IMG/VR virus record: IMGVR_UViG_2541047712_000002
DNA from: a virus
Lineage: Duplodnaviria; Heunggongvirae; Uroviricota; Caudoviricetes
Direction: 5' to 3' (one strand)
DNA length: 64,000 bases
Below are positions 54,001 to 57,000 of the stretch, piece by piece. The position numbers are program-made. The number at the start of each line of letters is the position of its first letter. Position 1 is the stretch's first letter.

Positions 54001-57000
54001 CGCTACGGGCAACTTAAGGAGAACGAAACCATTACTATCCAAGCGAAACGATTCACTGCCACCATCACAAGAACACCTAGTCGTAGAGTGGCCTTGATCA
54101 AAAAAGTCACAACCGAATAAAAATACAATGATAAGTATTTACTTACTTATCTTTTGTGTATAAGATGACTTTGTTTTCGTTGAGACGCGACTGTTTGAAC
54201 TTAAATACAAGTGCAAACGAAGAAGTCTATCTGGCAGTAGCCTAATAAGCCAAACACCAGCGAGGTCAGTTTCCAGCCTCGTTACCGAAATGGGACACAC
54301 TGAGCGAGTGTGATTGCAGAACGCAGGAGGGAACATTCATGTTCCCTCCGATGAAGTAACAGAATGGGCGGTTGGTATATTTTCAACTCCATATGACTCC
54401 CGGATTCTTAGCCACTGACCGCCCATCCTGTTACGTCATTTGTTCAATTATGTCGTTTATACTGGGTTAAAAAGCGGCGACGTAGCCCGGCTGGTATGGT
54501 TAGCCAGCACACAACGTTGAGGCCATTACATTTTTATCAATTCTAAGGTTCTATTCACAGAGATACCGGCGAGCGTTGATATGTAACATGTTGGGCAAAC
54601 ATTCAATCGGAGTAGTGGCCTCAACGTTGTGAAGACAGGATTGTTGTGTAGGTTTAACCACTGTTGCCATTGGTGCCTGTTTTCACAACAAATGATTCCA
54701 TACATCACATTGTATAAATTACAAAGTAGGTGCTGTCCTCAGAAACATCATCTACTTAAAGATTTTGCCTTCTACTATTGAGCGAAGTCGAAAGCGTCTG
54801 GCACTAACGAAAAGTGCAAGTAGCGGTGCGTTTCCTGGCAGAAACTAAACCGTCGCGATTGGCACTGTTGAGTAATAAATACTGGCAGTGCTGAATTGAT
54901 GGTGTAGCTCAGCGGTAGAGCAGTTGGCTGTTAACCAACTGGTCGGTGGTTCGAATCCACCCACCATCGCCAATTTAGGGGAGTTAGTCCGTAGAGGTAG
55001 CGGTGTAGACTGTAAATCTACTGTCATGGCGACTCGGGTGGTTCGACTCCATCACTCCCCACCAAATTGCCGGTTTAGCTCAGCGGGAGAGCGCGAGAGC
55101 CAAAGCATCGTTTCTACTTCGGTAGACAGCCTTGCTGGTCAAATGACAACGATTCGATGTTAGGCCAGAGGTCAGCGGTTCGAGTCCGTTAACCGGCACC
55201 AATACAACGATAAGATCATTACGGTTAATCGTCGTTCATGTGCACAATGACTGGTCGAAAGGTAGTGATCTTACCGTTGTGGTGGATTCGCAGACTGATG
55301 CGATAGCTTTCTTGGATGTTAGGGAAATGCGGCCGCAAATCTTCCCTTTCGCGAGCGGTGATCGTCCGTAGTCCTAATTGGCTGCACCGTATGCCGGAGA
55401 TTCAGTACCGGCCACCACAACGGCCGGAGAGTAGGGAGCATGGTGCTCAAGCGGTCTTGAAAACCGTCCCATTGCGCAAGCGATGATGGTTCGATTCCAT
55501 TACTCTCCGCCAGACACAGCGTTGAGCGGTTTGGCCTTTTAATCACCCAGATTAAGACTCCGCTAACATAAACCAGACCGCTCAACGCTGTGATAGACAA
55601 TTACGGCAGACGTTCTTAACCATTGCTTCTTAGCATCGTAGCAACACTTTTTTTCAGCGCAAATAATTAAAGGGGCTTCGGCCCCTTTTTGCTTAGTTGA
55701 AATCCAAAGAATCAAGTTCTGCTTTAAATTTATCGACAATTTTCTCAACTTCAACAACAATTTCATCAATCACCTTTTCTTTGTGTTGATTAGAGTTGAG
55801 TGCTAAATAGGCATTTTCTAACTTATACCTAGACAGACTATTTTTAATCTCATCAGCGAATCTATTGGTGAAACCATTGGTTAACAGAATACTTCTCTCT
55901 CGGGGGGAAATAGGATACTTATCGTTGAGTTTTATTAGCCTCTTTAAATGTTTTTCATCCTTGATCACCCTCACTTTATTACCTGCGATTCTAAGCTCCC
56001 AGCCTATAAAACCAGGTAACAAAGAGTTGAACTCAGCTACTTTATCGGCTGCATTTTCCATCCTCAGCTCAATGCTGTTTCGCATATGCATAGGTAGGTC
56101 ATTAAATCTTTGAAGCAAATGTTGTCGGCAGGGGTTGTTGTAAGACCACAGAATTGCGAACGTAGCCCTTAAATGACGGTATCTTGAATCGATTTTAGGG
56201 GGCTCACGACCTCGAACCATTTCTTCAACATAAAACTCTACATCTTTTCGGTATTCGTTATCAAATATCACAGCAGCATAAGAGTCCAAATAATGAACTT
56301 TCGATATTGCTTCTTCAAAAAAAAGTTGGCCTTCGAAGAAGTTATACTTGCTTAGCAGGCTGTAAAGTCTCTTTGCGTCATAGGTTTTATTAGTGTCAAT
56401 ATTAAGGCCGAATGTAGCTATCAGCAGGCTTACATTAGGACTAATGCTGTTGCGCAGCTGTTCTATGTAAGCTCTCTTTTCATAATCGGCTGATGACGGC
56501 GAATAGAAGTCTTTATCTAAATAATCAAGAATTAAAACTATGTGGTTAATATATTTAATGTAAACGGAGTTTTTGGTTACATGGTAATAAATAGCCTTGA
56601 TGAGATTCATTCCCAGTTTTGCATTAAGTTCCCTATCATCCTGCAAGGTCTTGTTAACATCCTCAAGTAATCTATTATGCTGTTCAAGTAATATGCCGTA
56701 CCATTCCTTAAAAGAGGCTTTTTTCATTTCAAGGAGTGAAGCTGCCGTCAGCCTAGTGGCCCTCATTGCTGCCTTTGCACTATGCCTTGCCTCGTAAGCG
56801 GCCCATGCTGTGGCGAAAAATGCAAGTGAAGTGGCAAGTGTACCTATGACCTCTACGTTTTCCTTGACGGTATCCCAGAAAATAATCATCACTGTCCCAA
56901 GTATGAGGATTAACAAAACAGGCATTTTATCAGTGTCTTTGGTTAATTTTGAAACTGAATGATACCTAATCGACCATACCATTTCAGCTAGTTTAAAGCT

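What the first reader, a model, noticed from the sequence alone, without database searches (positions are those of the whole stretch)
54140..55592. Structured non-coding region and two long inverted repeats with related arms flanking the tRNA array
A 15-bp perfect inverted repeat (CACAACGTTGAGGCC at 54509-54523 pairing with 54617-54631, about 93-nt loop) lies upstream of the tRNAs, and a second (ACAGCGTTGAGCGGT at 55516-55530 pairing with 55578-55592) starts 4 nt after tRNA-Ser. The arms share ACARCGTTGAG. The 750 bp before tRNA-Asn also has a GAGGGAACA-TTC-ATGTTCCCTC hairpin and no ORFs. These could be tRNA-precursor processing structures, sRNA genes, or the ends of a tRNA-array insertion.
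Basis: seen in the sequence. Interest (0 to 1): 0.5.

Follow-up and report, generated by a model that had tools for sequence, protein, structure and literature searches.

The report
Phage tRNA operon with tmRNA-like RNA
The two inverted repeats are real, conserved RNA hairpins inside a 1.6-kb protein-free operon of a phage-plasmid; the operon makes tRNAs and begins with an unannotated RNA that carries a tmRNA-like "tag" reading frame without a start codon and a stretch complementary to the host's own tmRNA.

Summary
Both inverted repeats exist as described. They are in fact 20-nt arms with 19/20 pairing, and the single imperfection in each is a G·U on the tRNA strand. They are two of at least five homologous hairpins in window 54121-55692, each with a base of the form CACAAC…GUUGUG. 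In related elements the arms keep pairing through compensatory changes. IR2 always sits 1-2 nt after the last tRNA of the array, whichever tRNA that is. IR1 lies in the leader whatever the tRNA content, so the repeats are not the two ends of an inserted array.

The region reads as one stable-RNA operon: promoter-like site, a tag RNA, structured domains, tRNA-Asn, tRNA-Tyr, a tRNA-Thr-like gene with a 76-nt insert, tRNA-Ser, IR2, terminator.

The main result is the first cistron (54173-54318). It has a 10-codon frame (ANEEVYLAVA, two stops) that starts at GCA with no start codon. Across about 400 phage genomes from at least five groups this frame shows codon-level selection, and a covarying hairpin and pseudoknot follow it. 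No tRNA-like domain was found. Its conserved 5' arm is the reverse complement of host tmRNA around the resume codon. ARAGORN has called this element "tmRNA" in two Felix O1-type genome notes; otherwise it is unannotated. Function is inferred, not shown.

The parts
54138..54166 (+). Promoter-like site: TTTACT, 17 nt, TAAGAT. An inferred transcription start lies about 6-7 nt downstream.
   Evidence: TACTTA and TA..T are invariant in 30 SSU5-like leaders. At the aligned place, virulent-phage copies carry the strong consensus TTGACA-N17-TAAGAT/TATAGT/TAATCT, and one GenBank record annotates a promoter there. The consensus scanner did not flag the window site, which matches only 8 of 12 positions. 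Inference; no transcript data.
54173..54196 (+). 5' arm of the tag RNA, GUUUUCGUUG-AGAC-GCGACUGUUU. It is the reverse complement of host tmRNA nt 95-104 and 82-91, which flank and cover the resume codon.
   Evidence: Two colinear 10-bp blocks. The same tmRNA site is hit in every phage family, with z 5.5-8.9 in eight families. The blocks are the most conserved columns of the 5' region.
54213..54248 (+). Tag reading frame without a start codon: GCA AAC GAA GAA GTC TAT CTG GCA GTA GCC TAA TAA = ANEEVYLAVA**
   Evidence: Weak beta_tmRNA hit. Codon-level conservation in a set anchored on the flank, not on the tag. ARAGORN reads the homologous frame in phage Moogle as a tmRNA tag. In-frame stops lie upstream and there is no start codon in SSU5, HK620 or Felix-type copies.
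54231..54260 (+). Helix enclosing the stop codons (CUGG 54231-54234 / CCAG 54257-54260), analogous to tmRNA helix 5.
   Evidence: Invariant in 48 sequences, so covariation can neither support nor reject it.
54261..54281 (+). Hairpin CGAGG…CCUCG after the tag frame.
   Evidence: Three of its five pairs show compensatory changes across families.
54296..54317 (+). H-type pseudoknot. Stem 1 is CACAC 54296-54300 / GUGUG 54308-54312. Stem 2 pairs loop GCGA 54304-54307 with UUGC 54314-54317.
   Evidence: Stem 1 is 100% paired, with two pairs covarying. Stem 2 covaries between families (GCCC/GGGC, GCCCAC/GUGGGC, GGCGGGAG/CUCCCGCC, GGCCCUGA/UCAGGGC) by inspection.
54317..54800 (+). Long-range helix CAGAACG (54317-54323) / CGUCUG (54795-54800) that closes the multi-domain part of the leader.
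   Evidence: RNAalifold; 8 of 30 sequences change G:C to A:U at one pair.
54326..54349 (+).
   Evidence: Five pairs show compensatory changes in 30 leaders. It is homologous by position to the CACAAC-AGGUAAGAGCAU…GUUGUG hairpins of lambdoid phages.
54351..54439 (+). Long hairpin with 22-nt arms (20/22 pairs) and a 45-nt loop.
   Evidence: Pairs are kept, mostly invariant or changed on one side only.
54510..54631 (+). IR1: family hairpin with 20-bp stem and 82-nt variable loop.
   Evidence: Two pairs have compensatory changes and there are three clade-fixed G·U pairs. Locus L096 lacks it exactly between the two CAACGTTG copies.
54626..54689 (+). Domain closed by GUUGUGAAGACAGG / CCUGUUUUCACAAC. 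Its 5' strand overlaps the 3' arm of IR1, so the two pairings exclude each other over GUUGUG.
54898..54972 (+). tRNA-Asn (GUU)
54978..55064 (+). tRNA-Tyr (GUA)
55069..55201 (+). tRNA-Thr-like gene. Acceptor stem, D arm, T arm and ACCA are intact, but the anticodon arm is replaced by a 76-nt structured insert.
   Evidence: Aligned with the normal tRNA-Thr of Cyrano, P7 and D6. Not called by ARAGORN or Rfam. The same gene occurs in 11 plasmids, including a different SSU5-like lineage (L037) and an E. albertii plasmid with a P1-like gene context (Dam, TerB).
55199..55285 (+). Family hairpin starting at the CCA of the tRNA-Thr-like gene (24-nt arms, 20/24 pairs).
   Evidence: z -4.3. Homologous to the hairpin after tRNA-Thr in P7 and D6, with arm changes that keep pairing.
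55274..55423 (+). tRNA-shaped domain: a 12-bp closing helix CCGUUGUGGUGG / CCACCACAACGG encloses hairpins, the last of them GCCGG-AGAUUCAGUA-CCGGC. It ends 2 nt before tRNA-Ser.
   Evidence: About 95% identical to P7 and D6. Homologous domains lie downstream of the tag RNA, after one intervening hairpin, in lambdoid phages that have no tRNA there.
55426..55512 (+). tRNA-Ser (UGA)
55515..55592 (+). IR2: family hairpin with 20-bp stem and 38-nt loop carrying the conserved GACUCCGC motif. It is the 3' cap of the tRNA array.
   Evidence: In every SSU5-like lineage it lies 1-2 nt after the last tRNA, with two compensatory pair changes and a conserved U·G.
55667..55690 (.). Intrinsic terminator hairpin AAAGGGGCUUCGGCCCCUUUUU, shared with the convergent 445-aa gene.

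Best explanation
Window 54121-55692 is one co-transcribed, protein-free stable-RNA operon of an SSU5-type phage-plasmid.

**Order of parts.** Promoter-like site; a ~150-nt tag RNA; a ~470-nt multi-domain structured RNA; tRNA-Asn; tRNA-Tyr; a tRNA-Thr-like RNA with an insert; a tRNA-shaped domain; tRNA-Ser; terminator.

**The two inverted repeats.** They are the stems of two members of one family of modular RNA hairpins. Each has a base helix of the form CACAAC/GUUGUG, a 14-20-bp stem, and an exchangeable loop of 2-90 nt. These hairpins punctuate the operon: they directly follow the tag RNA, the tRNA-Thr-like gene and the last tRNA.
- Shown: they are selected as RNA helices on the tRNA strand.
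- Inferred: they work as processing and insulating stems. About two turns of perfect duplex is the substrate size of RNase III. Placed 1-2 nt after CCA they would block 3' exonucleases until cut. They would therefore define the ends of the individual RNAs, and the GUUGUG strand they share with the next domain would let neighbouring modules fold in alternative ways.

**The first cistron.** It is a relative of the mRNA-like domain of tmRNA without a tRNA-like domain. It holds an alanine resume codon, a 10-codon degron-like tag, stops inside a helix, then a hairpin and a pseudoknot. Its conserved 5' arm is antisense to host tmRNA from about -8 to +15 around the resume codon.
- Inferred: it pairs with host tmRNA, masks the host tag template, and either supplies its own template or simply blocks tagging.
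For: **Identity of the element**
- 100% identical to E. coli plasmid NZ_CP116198 and related to phages CMS-2020a, Cyrano and SSU5.

**One transcription unit (inferred from layout)**
- All parts lie on one strand between a conserved promoter-like site and a terminator.
- No ORF exceeds 65 aa.
- The upstream genes are on the same strand.

**RNA-level selection on the hairpins**
- Compensatory changes at 54326-54349 (5 pairs), IR1 (2 pairs) and the long-range helix.
- IR2: GAGCGG/CCGCUC changes to GAACGG/CCGUUC, and GCGUUG/CAACGC changes to GCGCUG/CAGCGC.
- The base helix itself covaries: CACAAC/GUUGUG against CGCAAC/AUUGCG in P7.
- The only imperfection in IR1 and in IR2 is G·U on the + strand. 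IR1 is 8.5 kcal/mol more stable on + than on -.
- Clade-fixed mismatches in IR1 are all G·U.
- Family-wide, internal mismatches are 62 of G·U type against 31 of A·C type.

**Position**
- IR2-type hairpins lie 1-2 nt after the last tRNA in all SSU5-like lineages.
- Hairpins start 1-3 nt after CCA in P7, D6 and the window.
- 274 of 274 neighbouring tRNAs are on the same strand as the tag.

**Tag RNA**
- In a set anchored on the flank, codon 3 is only GAA/GAT/GAC and codon 6 only TAT/TAC/TTC/TTT.
- In that set codons 8 and 10 vary at the third position only, and the stop is TAA, TAG or TGA.
- Kuttervirus and L139 copies carry further synonymous changes.
- There is no conserved start codon and in-frame stops lie upstream.
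- Positions U-5 and A-4 are kept in the SSU5, HK620, Michonne, Carvaje and Cba120 copies; A-4 is kept throughout, but the window itself has C at -5.
- The hairpin and pseudoknot covary: 43 double-change cells against 13±3 in shuffles, 0/500.
- ARAGORN reads the Moogle homologue as a tmRNA tag.

**Antisense arm**
- The reverse complement of the 62 nt upstream of the resume codon aligns to tmRNA nt 67/80-106 with z 5.5-8.9 in eight families, always at the same site.
- The window has 10+10 bp; 14 of 3000 shuffles reach this.
- The arm blocks are invariant while the phage's own codons 3-5 vary.
Against: **General**
- No transcript, processing or cleavage data exist, so co-transcription and RNase III cleavage are inferences.
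- RNase III needs no sequence motif that could be tested here.
- The high sequence similarity of the hairpin arms between unrelated phages could reflect recent horizontal spread or a sequence-specific partner rather than mere duplex formation.

**DNA-level events**
- One relative (L096) lacks IR1 exactly between two CAACGTTG copies.
- Hairpin-plus-domain units are bounded by CACAAC direct repeats.
- DNA-level gain and loss of modules therefore also happens.

**Weak statistics**
- The 62:31 G·U to A·C ratio comes from non-independent sequences.

**Tag RNA**
- No tRNA-like domain was found by ARAGORN or Rfam.
- All tmRNA models score below threshold: 17-30 bits against 47-84.
- Sense similarity of the window copy to E. 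coli tmRNA is only z about 2.4.

**Antisense arm**
- In the window alone the complementarity is modest: about 20 other places in the 64 kb reach 20 bp if G·U is allowed.
- Duplex energy does not stand out from shuffles.
- Part of the arm can also pair in cis with the phage's own GCAAACGA.
- All known hosts share the same tmRNA sequence here, so arm-target covariation could not be tested.
Confidence: 0.6

Rival explanations
1. The repeats act at the DNA level. They are boundaries of mobile or recombining cassettes (like MITE ends or integron attC sites) that shuffle tRNA genes and other modules between phages, and any RNA folding is incidental.
For: - Array content differs between relatives by whole modules, with breakpoints at tRNA ends and at CACAAC joints.
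- Cyrano has only ACACAAT where the window has a hairpin plus a tRNA-shaped domain.
- L096 lacks IR1 precisely between the two 8-bp CAACGTTG copies, leaving the 12-bp palindrome-like site CGCAACGTTGTG.
- The same loop cassette (a T-loop-containing three-way junction) sits in hairpins at different positions in D6, L024, L105 and L012.
- Near-identical modules are shared by P1-like, SSU5-like, lambdoid and siphovirus genomes.
Against: - Pairing is maintained by compensatory changes, and the tolerated mismatches are G·U on the tRNA strand. These would be A·C mismatches on the other strand or in a symmetric DNA site.
- The hairpins have a strict strand orientation and a fixed position 1-2 nt after CCA.
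- No integrase or transposase is adjacent. The neighbours are an ATP-dependent ligase, small unknown ORFs and a 445-aa protein with no family match.
- Deletion between short direct repeats that flank a hairpin is a common replication slippage outcome (own knowledge).
- Module exchange by homologous recombination at conserved stems is compatible with an RNA function.
Confidence: 0.2
2. The hairpins are precursors of independent small RNAs. The conserved loops are the functional parts (antisense seeds or protein-binding sites), and the stems only present or excise them.
For: - The IR2 loop keeps the motif GACUCCGC and an internal mini-hairpin across lineages whose arms differ.
- The IR1 loop keeps short islands (AAUC, ACAGAG, GGG, AAUCGG) in an otherwise variable 60-82 nt.
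- Some loops in relatives are tRNA-like three-way junctions with a canonical T-loop.
- The first cistron shows that antisense targeting of a host RNA is plausible in this operon.
Against: - Loop length ranges from 2 nt (54337-54338) to 82 nt within one family, and loop content is exchangeable. This argues that the stem is the common functional element.
- No target was identified.
- No Rfam family matches.
- There are no expression data.
Confidence: 0.15
3. The repeats are transcription terminators or attenuators, or double-stranded protein-binding sites such as operators, a replication origin or a packaging site.
For: - Long perfect palindromes with an AACGTT core could bind dimeric proteins.
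- In P1 and P7 the homologous tRNA operon lies downstream of the C1 operator Op(ban).
- The region is the longest non-coding stretch near replication genes such as the ligase.
Against: - No U-tract follows either hairpin, and the terminator scan reports only 55669-55688 and two unrelated sites.
- Sequence varies while pairing is kept, which is the signature of RNA rather than of a protein-binding site.
- The motif is not dispersed in the 64 kb.
- The same hairpins occur in lambdoid late leaders, in virulent-phage tRNA arrays and in P1-type operons, which share no replication or packaging system.
Confidence: 0.05
4. The tag frame is not used in trans-translation. It is either inert debris of a captured ssrA fragment or a conventional very small protein gene, and the 5' complementarity to tmRNA is a relic of an inverted duplication.
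For: - No tRNA-like domain was found.
- tmRNA models score below threshold.
- The window lineage has an in-frame ATG at 54165 giving a 26-aa ORF.
- The arm can pair partly with the element's own GCAAACGA.
- The window-only statistics for complementarity are modest.
Against: - Codon-level purifying selection, interchange among the three stop codons and synonymous third-position changes occur across at least five unrelated phage groups.
- The ATG is not conserved: SSU5 has ATT plus a frameshift, and SSU5, HK620 and Felix-type copies have in-frame stops 7-9 codons upstream. The ATG also overlaps the -10 element.
- Virulent phages give the element its own strong promoter.
- The arm stays matched to the host sequence and does not follow the element's own diverging codons.
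- The tag is consistently ...LAVA rather than the host ...ALAA.
Confidence: 0.2

Closest known systems
tmRNA (ssrA), one-piece (Rfam RF00023) and two-piece or permuted forms (RF01849-RF01851, RF04321)
   Same: - A short reading frame without a start codon, beginning at an alanine GCA codon preceded by an A/U-rich ...UA... context.
- It encodes AN(D/E)xx(Y/F)LAVA, close to the enterobacterial ANDENYALAA.
- The stop codons sit in a helix loop.
- A pseudoknot lies downstream.
- ARAGORN's tag detector accepts the Moogle homologue.
   Different: - No acceptor stem with G3·U70, T arm and CCA joined to the frame, and no long helix 2.
- Scores are below every Rfam tmRNA threshold.
- The core is about 150 nt instead of about 360 nt.
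- The 5' end is antisense to the host's own tmRNA.
- It is embedded in a tRNA operon or a lambdoid late leader.
Phage T4 tRNA gene cluster with the stable RNAs species 1 and 2 (rnaC, rnaD); own knowledge
   Same: A phage operon that yields several tRNAs plus extra stable structured RNAs of unknown function from one precursor, matured by host RNases (RNase P and E, with a reported RNase III contribution).
   Different: No sequence or Rfam relation was detected. T4 has no tag frame. The CACAAC…GUUGUG hairpin family has not been described there, to my knowledge.
RNase III processing stalks of rRNA operons and phage T7 and lambda transcripts (own knowledge)
   Same: Long-range or local duplexes of about 20 bp or more flank stable RNAs in a polycistronic precursor. 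Structure rather than sequence is conserved.
   Different: Cleavage was not tested here. These hairpins start 1-2 nt after a tRNA CCA and share their 3' strand with the closing helix of the next domain.
Large phage-associated structured RNAs found next to tRNA genes (GOLLD RF01998, ROOL RF03087); own knowledge of their context
   Same: Multi-domain ornate RNA of several hundred nt, encoded by phages or prophages beside tRNA genes, with function unknown.
   Different: No Rfam match at E up to 1. The host range here is Enterobacteriaceae, the build is modular hairpins, and a tag frame is present.
Phage-encoded antisense and sponge RNAs that target host or phage RNAs (P1/P7 C4 RNA; anti-sRNAs AgvB and AsxR of Shiga-toxin phages); own knowledge
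   Same: A phage-encoded RNA with a conserved stretch complementary to another RNA. The seed GCGACU is predicted to lie in a hairpin loop.
   Different: The proposed target is tmRNA, for which I found no described antisense regulator in the searched literature. The RNA also carries its own tag template.
Integron attC sites and MITE-like hairpin elements
   Same: Imperfect inverted repeats with conserved outer cores and a variable centre bound exchangeable cassettes.
   Different: The cores do not fit RYYYAAC/GTTRRRY. No integrase is nearby. The mismatches are G·U on one strand and the location is fixed relative to tRNA 3' ends.

Membership tests
tmRNA (ssrA) | tRNA-like domain: acceptor stem with G3·U70, T arm, 3' CCA, formed by the RNA's own ends or by a paired second piece | tested here: not met
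   ARAGORN finds no tmRNA in the window or in 136 related segments. Rfam at gathering threshold finds nothing in the window. The only ARAGORN call (Moogle, permuted) borrows a permuted tRNA-like piece 520 nt upstream across three tRNA genes and has A3:U70.
tmRNA (ssrA) | mRNA-like domain: a frame without a start codon, resuming at an Ala codon, encoding a C-terminal degron-like tag and ending in stops | tested here: met
   GCA AAC ... GCC TAA TAA at 54213-54248, with codon-level selection across families and no conserved start codon.
tmRNA (ssrA) | Pseudoknots flanking the frame (PK1 upstream, PK2-4 downstream) and the stop codon in helix 5 | tested here: inconclusive
   One downstream pseudoknot and one hairpin are supported by covariation. 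The helix around the stops is invariant. No upstream pseudoknot was shown.
tmRNA (ssrA) | Score at or above the Rfam gathering threshold for any tmRNA model | tested here: not met
   17.3 bits against 84 (window). The best relative scores 29.9 against 47.
tmRNA (ssrA) | Alanine charging, SmpB binding and tagging of stalled nascent chains | not testable with these tools
   Requires biochemistry or mass spectrometry.
RNase III processing stem | About 20 bp or more of near-perfect duplex RNA flanking a stable RNA | tested here: met
   IR1 and IR2 have 20-bp stems with one G·U each, directly beside tRNA or structured domains.
RNase III processing stem | Staggered cleavage by RNase III; precursor accumulation in an rnc mutant | not testable with these tools
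   No transcript data available.
Intrinsic terminator | G+C-rich hairpin followed by a U-run | tested here: not met
   The scan reports no site at IR1 or IR2. The sequences after the stems are AAGACAGG and AUAGACAA.
Integron attC / MITE-type DNA element | Conserved recombination cores (RYYYAAC…GTTRRRY) or terminal inverted repeats with a target-site duplication, plus a cognate recombinase | tested here: inconclusive
   The cores do not fit. One empty-site-like relative exists (L096). No recombinase is among the neighbours tested. The G·U asymmetry argues for RNA.
tRNA (for 55069-55201) | Cloverleaf with an anticodon arm | tested here: not met
   Acceptor stem, D arm, T arm and ACCA are present, but the anticodon arm is replaced by 76 nt. 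It is not called by ARAGORN or Rfam.
Any curated RNA family (Rfam 15) | A match to a covariance model for the hairpins or leader domains | tested here: not met
   Only tRNA models pass. Nothing at E up to 1 covers IR1, IR2 or the domains between them.

The most novel reading that the evidence does not exclude
The first cistron (54173-54318) is a phage 'tag-swap' RNA. Its 5' arm hybridises to host tmRNA over the resume codon and first tag codons; in lambdoid copies it also covers the 3' strand of pseudoknot 1. This silences the host ANDENYALAA template and tethers the phage's own resume codon and tag frame to the host's alanine-charged tRNA-like domain and SmpB. The result would be a chimeric two-piece tmRNA that rescues ribosomes but appends (A)AN[DE]xx[YF]LAVA. 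That tag keeps the SspB-binding part but replaces the ClpX-recognised LAA end. The tRNA array and this RNA would then be one toolkit for keeping translation going when host defences cut tRNAs or mRNAs.
Probability: 0.3. Interest if true: 0.92.

Novelty: new variant of a known kind. Interest (0 to 1): 0.72.

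Why it matters
**Annotation gap.** These phage-plasmids are common in E. coli, Klebsiella, Salmonella, Enterobacter and Yersinia: 773 plasmid records match the leader. The tag RNA is present in about 400 phage genomes, including Felix O1-type and Kuttervirus types (own knowledge: both are used for therapy and typing). Yet nothing is annotated at this place in RefSeq, and it was unannotated in every GenBank phage record I sampled.

**If the hairpins are processing stems.** They would give a simple rule for finding the ends of phage stable RNAs, and for recognising further cargo RNAs carried in their loops.

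**If the tag RNA works with or against host tmRNA.** It would be the first case I could find of a virus reprogramming or blocking trans-translation through an RNA. It would also bear on an old observation (own knowledge): lambda-P22 hybrid phages and Mu depend on tmRNA, yet do not need the degradation tag. The element also offers a natural test of whether the mRNA-like and tRNA-like halves of tmRNA can be supplied by different genomes.

Tried and rejected
1. **Duplex energy.** RNAduplex energy as evidence for arm-tmRNA pairing was rejected. Shuffled arms give -24±3 against -26.3 kcal/mol, and tRNA-rich parts score better. I replaced it with local alignment against shuffles and a two-block count.

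2. **First tag collection.** The first set of tags used a pattern that fixed most codon positions, so its 'synonymous only' picture was circular. I redid it with a pattern anchored on the flank.

3. **Genome scan.** A scan of 185,579 species genomes with the 18-nt flank pattern returned almost only chance matches: 1 real copy in 120 rows.

4. **Search for a tRNA-like domain.** None of these candidates has G3·U70 with a free NCCA:
   - the hairpin upstream of the tag in lambdoid copies;
   - the tRNA-shaped domain 55274-55423;
   - hairpin loops with T-loops.

   ARAGORN's permuted call in Moogle is an implausible gene model.

5. **Other complementarity to tmRNA.** Tests on other conserved single-stranded motifs, for example AAUGAUUCCAUACAUC at 54694-54709, did not stand out.

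6. **Sense similarity to tmRNA.** Similarity of the rest of the leader to tmRNA was not found.

7. **The 26-aa ORF from ATG 54165.** Not conserved.

8. **Motif enrichment.** Window-wide enrichment of ACARCGTTGAG or CACAACG is not significant.

9. **Neighbouring proteins.** Pfam finds a ligase and a glutaredoxin, and neither Pfam nor PADLOC matches the convergent 445-aa ORF. None explains the RNA region.

10. **Literature.** Searches for a phage antisense to tmRNA, or for a described tmRNA-like RNA in lambdoid, SSU5 or P1 phages, found nothing beyond two genome announcements.

Full report
**What the window is.** The stretch 54100-55700 is 98% identical to Escherichia phage CMS-2020a and Cyrano. 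It is related at about 80% to Salmonella phage SSU5 and to Klebsiella phage-plasmids. The leader is 100% identical to E. coli plasmid NZ_CP116198 and matches 773 plasmid records from Klebsiella, Escherichia, Enterobacter, Yersinia and Salmonella. Upstream on the same strand are an ATP-dependent DNA ligase and small unknown ORFs. Downstream is a convergent 445-aa ORF with no Pfam or PADLOC match. Between 54121 and 55692 there is no ORF longer than 65 aa.

**Checking the observation.** Both long inverted repeats are present. IR1 has arms 54510-54529 and 54612-54631. IR2 has arms 55515-55534 and 55573-55592. Each pairs at 19 of 20 positions. The small hairpin is at 54326-54349. On the + strand IR1 folds at -47.8 kcal/mol (z -6.7) and IR2 at -41.2 kcal/mol (z -9.8). 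The whole leader and the tRNA-spacer part are far more stable than shuffles, with z -8.6 and -6.5. The shared 11-mer is not itself enriched in the 64 kb.

- three further long helices (54351-54439, 55199-55285, 55274-55423) and the helix 54626-54689 that overlaps IR1;
- a fourth tRNA-like gene at 55069-55201. Its acceptor stem, D arm, T arm and ACCA match the tRNA-Thr of Cyrano, P7 and D6, but its anticodon arm is replaced by 76 nt.

**The repeats belong to one hairpin family.** Alignment with P1-type phages P7 and D6 shows the same tRNA-Asn/Thr/Ser array with spacers built from hairpins. Their arms begin CACAAC (or CGCAAC) and end GUUGUG (or AUUGCG). Lambdoid prophages, HK620 and Klebsiella siphophages carry hairpins of the form CACAAC-A-GGUAAGAGCAU…AGUGCUCUUUCC-GUUGUG. 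The P7 hairpin after tRNA-Ser (CGCAAC-GUUAAGAGUAUUUGG…CCAAGUGCUCUUACC-AUUGCG) bridges this form and the window's ACARCGUUGAG form.

The window has at least five members of this family: 54326-54349 (2-nt loop), IR1, 55199-55285, IR2, and the variant base helix CAGAACG/CGUCUG that closes 54317-54800. Each hairpin's 3' GUUGUG is also the 5' strand of the helix that closes the next domain. This applies to 54626-54689 after IR1 and to 55274-55423 after 55199-55285. Neighbouring modules therefore have mutually exclusive pairings.

**RNA-level selection.** In 30 non-redundant SSU5-like leaders (75% mean column identity) the consensus fold recovers these helices:
- five pairs of the 54326-54349 hairpin have compensatory changes;
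- two pairs of IR1 have compensatory changes, and three positions in IR1 carry clade-fixed G·U;
- one pair of the long-range helix changes G:C to A:U in 8 sequences.

IR2 is invariant within the E. coli clade. Across SSU5-like lineages it shows GAGCGG/CCGCUC changing to GAACGG/CCGUUC, GCGUUG/CAACGC changing to GCGCUG/CAGCGC, and a conserved U·G.

The single imperfection in IR1 and in IR2 is G·U on the + strand, which would be A·C on the other strand. Over 102 distinct long hairpins from related loci, internal mismatches are 62 of G·U type and 31 of A·C type. That count is suggestive only, because the sequences are related.

**Position of the hairpins.** IR2-type hairpins start 1-2 nt after the last tRNA of the array in every SSU5-like lineage. 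That tRNA is tRNA-Asn where it is the only one, and tRNA-Ser elsewhere. In P7, D6 and the window, hairpins begin 1-3 nt after the CCA of tRNA-Thr and tRNA-Ser. IR1 lies 213-270 nt upstream of tRNA-Asn in all lineages, whatever the array holds. The array therefore varies between tRNA-Asn and IR2. IR2 is a fixed 3' cap, and IR1 is an internal leader element rather than an insertion boundary. Neither hairpin is followed by a U-run, and the only terminator is at 55667-55690.

**DNA-level turnover also occurs.** Locus L096 lacks IR1 exactly between its two CAACGTTG copies. Cyrano has only ACACAAT where the window has a hairpin plus a domain. The same T-loop-containing loop cassette sits in different hairpins of D6 and several lambdoid prophages. 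I read this as recombination or slippage at conserved stems. A dedicated DNA mechanism is not excluded.

**The first cistron.** A weak beta_tmRNA hit at 54194-54296 led to the frame GCA AAC GAA GAA GTC TAT CTG GCA GTA GCC TAA TAA (54213-54248). A 110-nt piece around it matches non-coding DNA in very different phages:
- Felix O1-type tRNA arrays;
- the HK620 late leader between the Q-utilisation site and the late terminator;
- Klebsiella siphophages;
- Kuttervirus.

In total 405 phage records match.

In a collection anchored on the 3' flank rather than on the tag, the frame behaves as coding sequence:

| Codon | Observed |
|---|---|
| 3 | GAA, GAT or GAC only |
| 6 | TAT, TAC, TTC or TTT only |
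| 8 and 10 | third-position changes only |
| stop | TAA, TAG or TGA |

L139 and Cba120 add synonymous changes in codons 1, 2, 9 and 10. The consensus is AN[DE]x x[YF]LAVA, against the host ANDENYALAA.

No start codon is conserved. SSU5, HK620 and Felix-type copies have an in-frame stop 7-9 codons upstream with no ATG, GTG or TTG between. The nucleotides before GCA keep A at -4 in the copies read; U at -5 holds in SSU5, HK620, Michonne, Carvaje and Cba120, while the window has C.

Downstream, a hairpin and an H-type pseudoknot are supported by covariation in 48 diverse sequences: 43 double-change cells against 13±3 in shuffles (0/500), and 92% of cells paired against 35-49% when partners are slid.

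Virulent phages place a strong promoter (TTGACA-N17-TATAGT, TAAGAT or TAATCT) about 7 nt before the conserved GUUUUCG. The window has TTTACT-N17-TAAGAT at the aligned place.

**No tRNA-like domain.** ARAGORN calls no tmRNA in the window or in 136 related segments. All Rfam tmRNA models stay below threshold. On phage Moogle, ARAGORN does call a permuted tmRNA with the tag ANDNVFLAVA. That model spans 749 nt and three tRNA genes, and it borrows a permuted tRNA-like piece with A3:U70.

This explains two genome announcements. One states that ARAGORN finds ssrA in Moogle and the other that it finds ssrA in Felix O1 (PMC4319497, PMC4392139). The second says phage Mushroom lacks it, although BLAST shows Mushroom has the element. 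The Felix O1 genome paper does not mention it. None of about 120 sampled GenBank phage records annotates it, and neither does RefSeq in 258 E. coli genomes.

**The 5' arm is antisense to host tmRNA.** I fetched E. coli ssrA. The reverse complement of the 62 nt upstream of the phage resume codon aligns colinearly with tmRNA nt 80-106 (AAAAUAGUCGC-AAAC-GACGAAAACUA). In lambdoid, Carvaje-type and Kuttervirus-type copies it extends to nt 67-81, the 3' strand of pseudoknot 1. Against 500 shuffles, z is 5.5-8.9 in eight families, and the tmRNA coordinates are always the same.

The window copy has two 10-bp blocks: 54173-54182 with nt 95-104, and 54187-54196 with nt 82-91. This is reached by 14 of 3000 shuffles and 18 of 8530 native 30-mers. 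On its own that is modest, since about 20 other places in the window reach 20 bp if G·U is allowed, and duplex energy is uninformative.

The paired blocks (GUUUUCGU and GCGAC) are the conserved columns of the 5' region, and the bulges between them vary. They do not follow the element's own codons 3-5, which differ between families. Partial cis pairing with the element's own GCAAACGA is predicted, but by hand count it covers about 12 bp against about 31 bp with the host in the lambdoid copy.

From this I infer that host tmRNA is the partner. Whether the outcome is a chimeric tmRNA using the phage tag, or simple blockage or destruction of tmRNA, cannot be decided here.

**How it most likely works.**
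- Shown: the architecture; conservation of the helices as RNA; the fixed position of the hairpins after stable RNAs; coding-type selection on a frame without a start codon; complementarity of its 5' arm to tmRNA.
- Inferred: co-transcription from 54173 to 55690; the hairpins acting as processing and insulating stems; trans pairing with tmRNA. The processing idea rests on own knowledge: about 20 bp is the RNase III substrate size, and RNase III contributes to maturation of rRNA operons and of the T4 tRNA cluster. I give the overall reading 0.6. Within it the RNase III step is about 0.35 and the tag-swap mechanism about 0.3.

**Novelty.** Structured spacers in stable-RNA operons and tmRNA are both known. 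The following are, as far as I could find, undescribed:
- this hairpin family;
- the tag RNA without a tRNA-like domain, its spread from Felix O1-type phages to lambdoid late leaders, Kuttervirus and phage-plasmids, and its antisense arm.

I therefore rate the finding as a new variant of a known kind, with a categorically new mechanism as the upside.

Noticed in passing
window 55069-55201: A tRNA-Thr-like gene keeps its acceptor stem, D arm, T arm and ACCA but has a 76-nt structured insert (with a UUCG-capped hairpin) in place of the anticodon arm. This topology resembles a tmRNA tRNA-like domain. The same gene is in 11 plasmids, including another SSU5-like lineage (L037) and an E. albertii plasmid with a P1-like gene context (Dam, TerB) (L147), so it is maintained rather than a one-off wreck.
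   Followed up: partly
L132:1716-1800 (Felix O1-type contig), directly after the tag RNA: A tRNA-like gene not called by ARAGORN. Its acceptor is CGGGGCG/CGCCUCG with G3·U70 and A73-CCA (alanine identity elements). It has no D stem, an anticodon hairpin reading UCU (Arg), a long variable region and a normal T arm. It replaces the ordinary tRNA-Arg(UCU) of sister phages.
   Followed up: no
L149:910-1033 (phage Cba120) and L097: About 130 nt downstream of the Kuttervirus tag RNA lies a tRNA-like gene (GCCGUUA…T arm…AAACGGC-U-CCA) with about 95 nt inserted between the acceptor strand and the T arm. A second T-arm-containing structure lies before it. ARAGORN calls neither.
   Followed up: no
L271:1104-1165 (phage Moogle): A circularly permuted tRNA-like piece: T arm, acceptor 3' strand, G-CCA, then 4 nt, then the matching acceptor 5' strand and a D-arm-like sequence. 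This is what ARAGORN uses to call a 'permuted tmRNA' 749 nt long.
   Followed up: partly
L005:880-1600 (HK620) and lambdoid prophage loci L012, L024, L086, L105: In P22-like and lambdoid phages the tag RNA, hairpins and tRNA-shaped domain fill the late leader between the late promoter/qut site and the late terminator. If transcription there resembles the constitutive short late-leader transcript of lambda (own knowledge), lysogens would express the RNA all the time.
   Followed up: partly
D6 locus L003:~1200-1290; L024, L105, L012 hairpin loops: One loop cassette is a three-way junction: a hairpin whose 7-nt loop reads like an anticodon loop (U33, CGG, A37), and a canonical T arm (GAGGGUUCGAAUCCCUA). 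In other words it is a D-armless tRNA-like unit embedded in a 14-20-bp stem. It occurs in hairpins at different positions in unrelated phages.
   Followed up: no
L096 versus window 54510-54631: One SSU5-like relative lacks IR1 precisely between the two CAACGTTG copies, leaving CGCAACGTTGTG. This is either an empty site or a slippage deletion.
   Followed up: partly
window 55693-57030 (- strand): A convergent 445-aa ORF with no Pfam or PADLOC match. Cyrano has different genes at this position, so it is a variable accessory gene next to the RNA operon.
   Followed up: partly
window 54694-54709 (AAUGAUUCCAUACAUC): A nearly invariant, apparently single-stranded 16-mer in all 30 SSU5-like leaders, set in an otherwise variable stretch. 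No partner was identified.
   Followed up: partly
Phage Mushroom KP143762 (hit H212): Its genome announcement says the phage lacks the Felix O1 'tmRNA', but BLAST shows the tag element is present. ARAGORN calls therefore depend on chance tRNA-like neighbours and under-report the element.
   Followed up: partly
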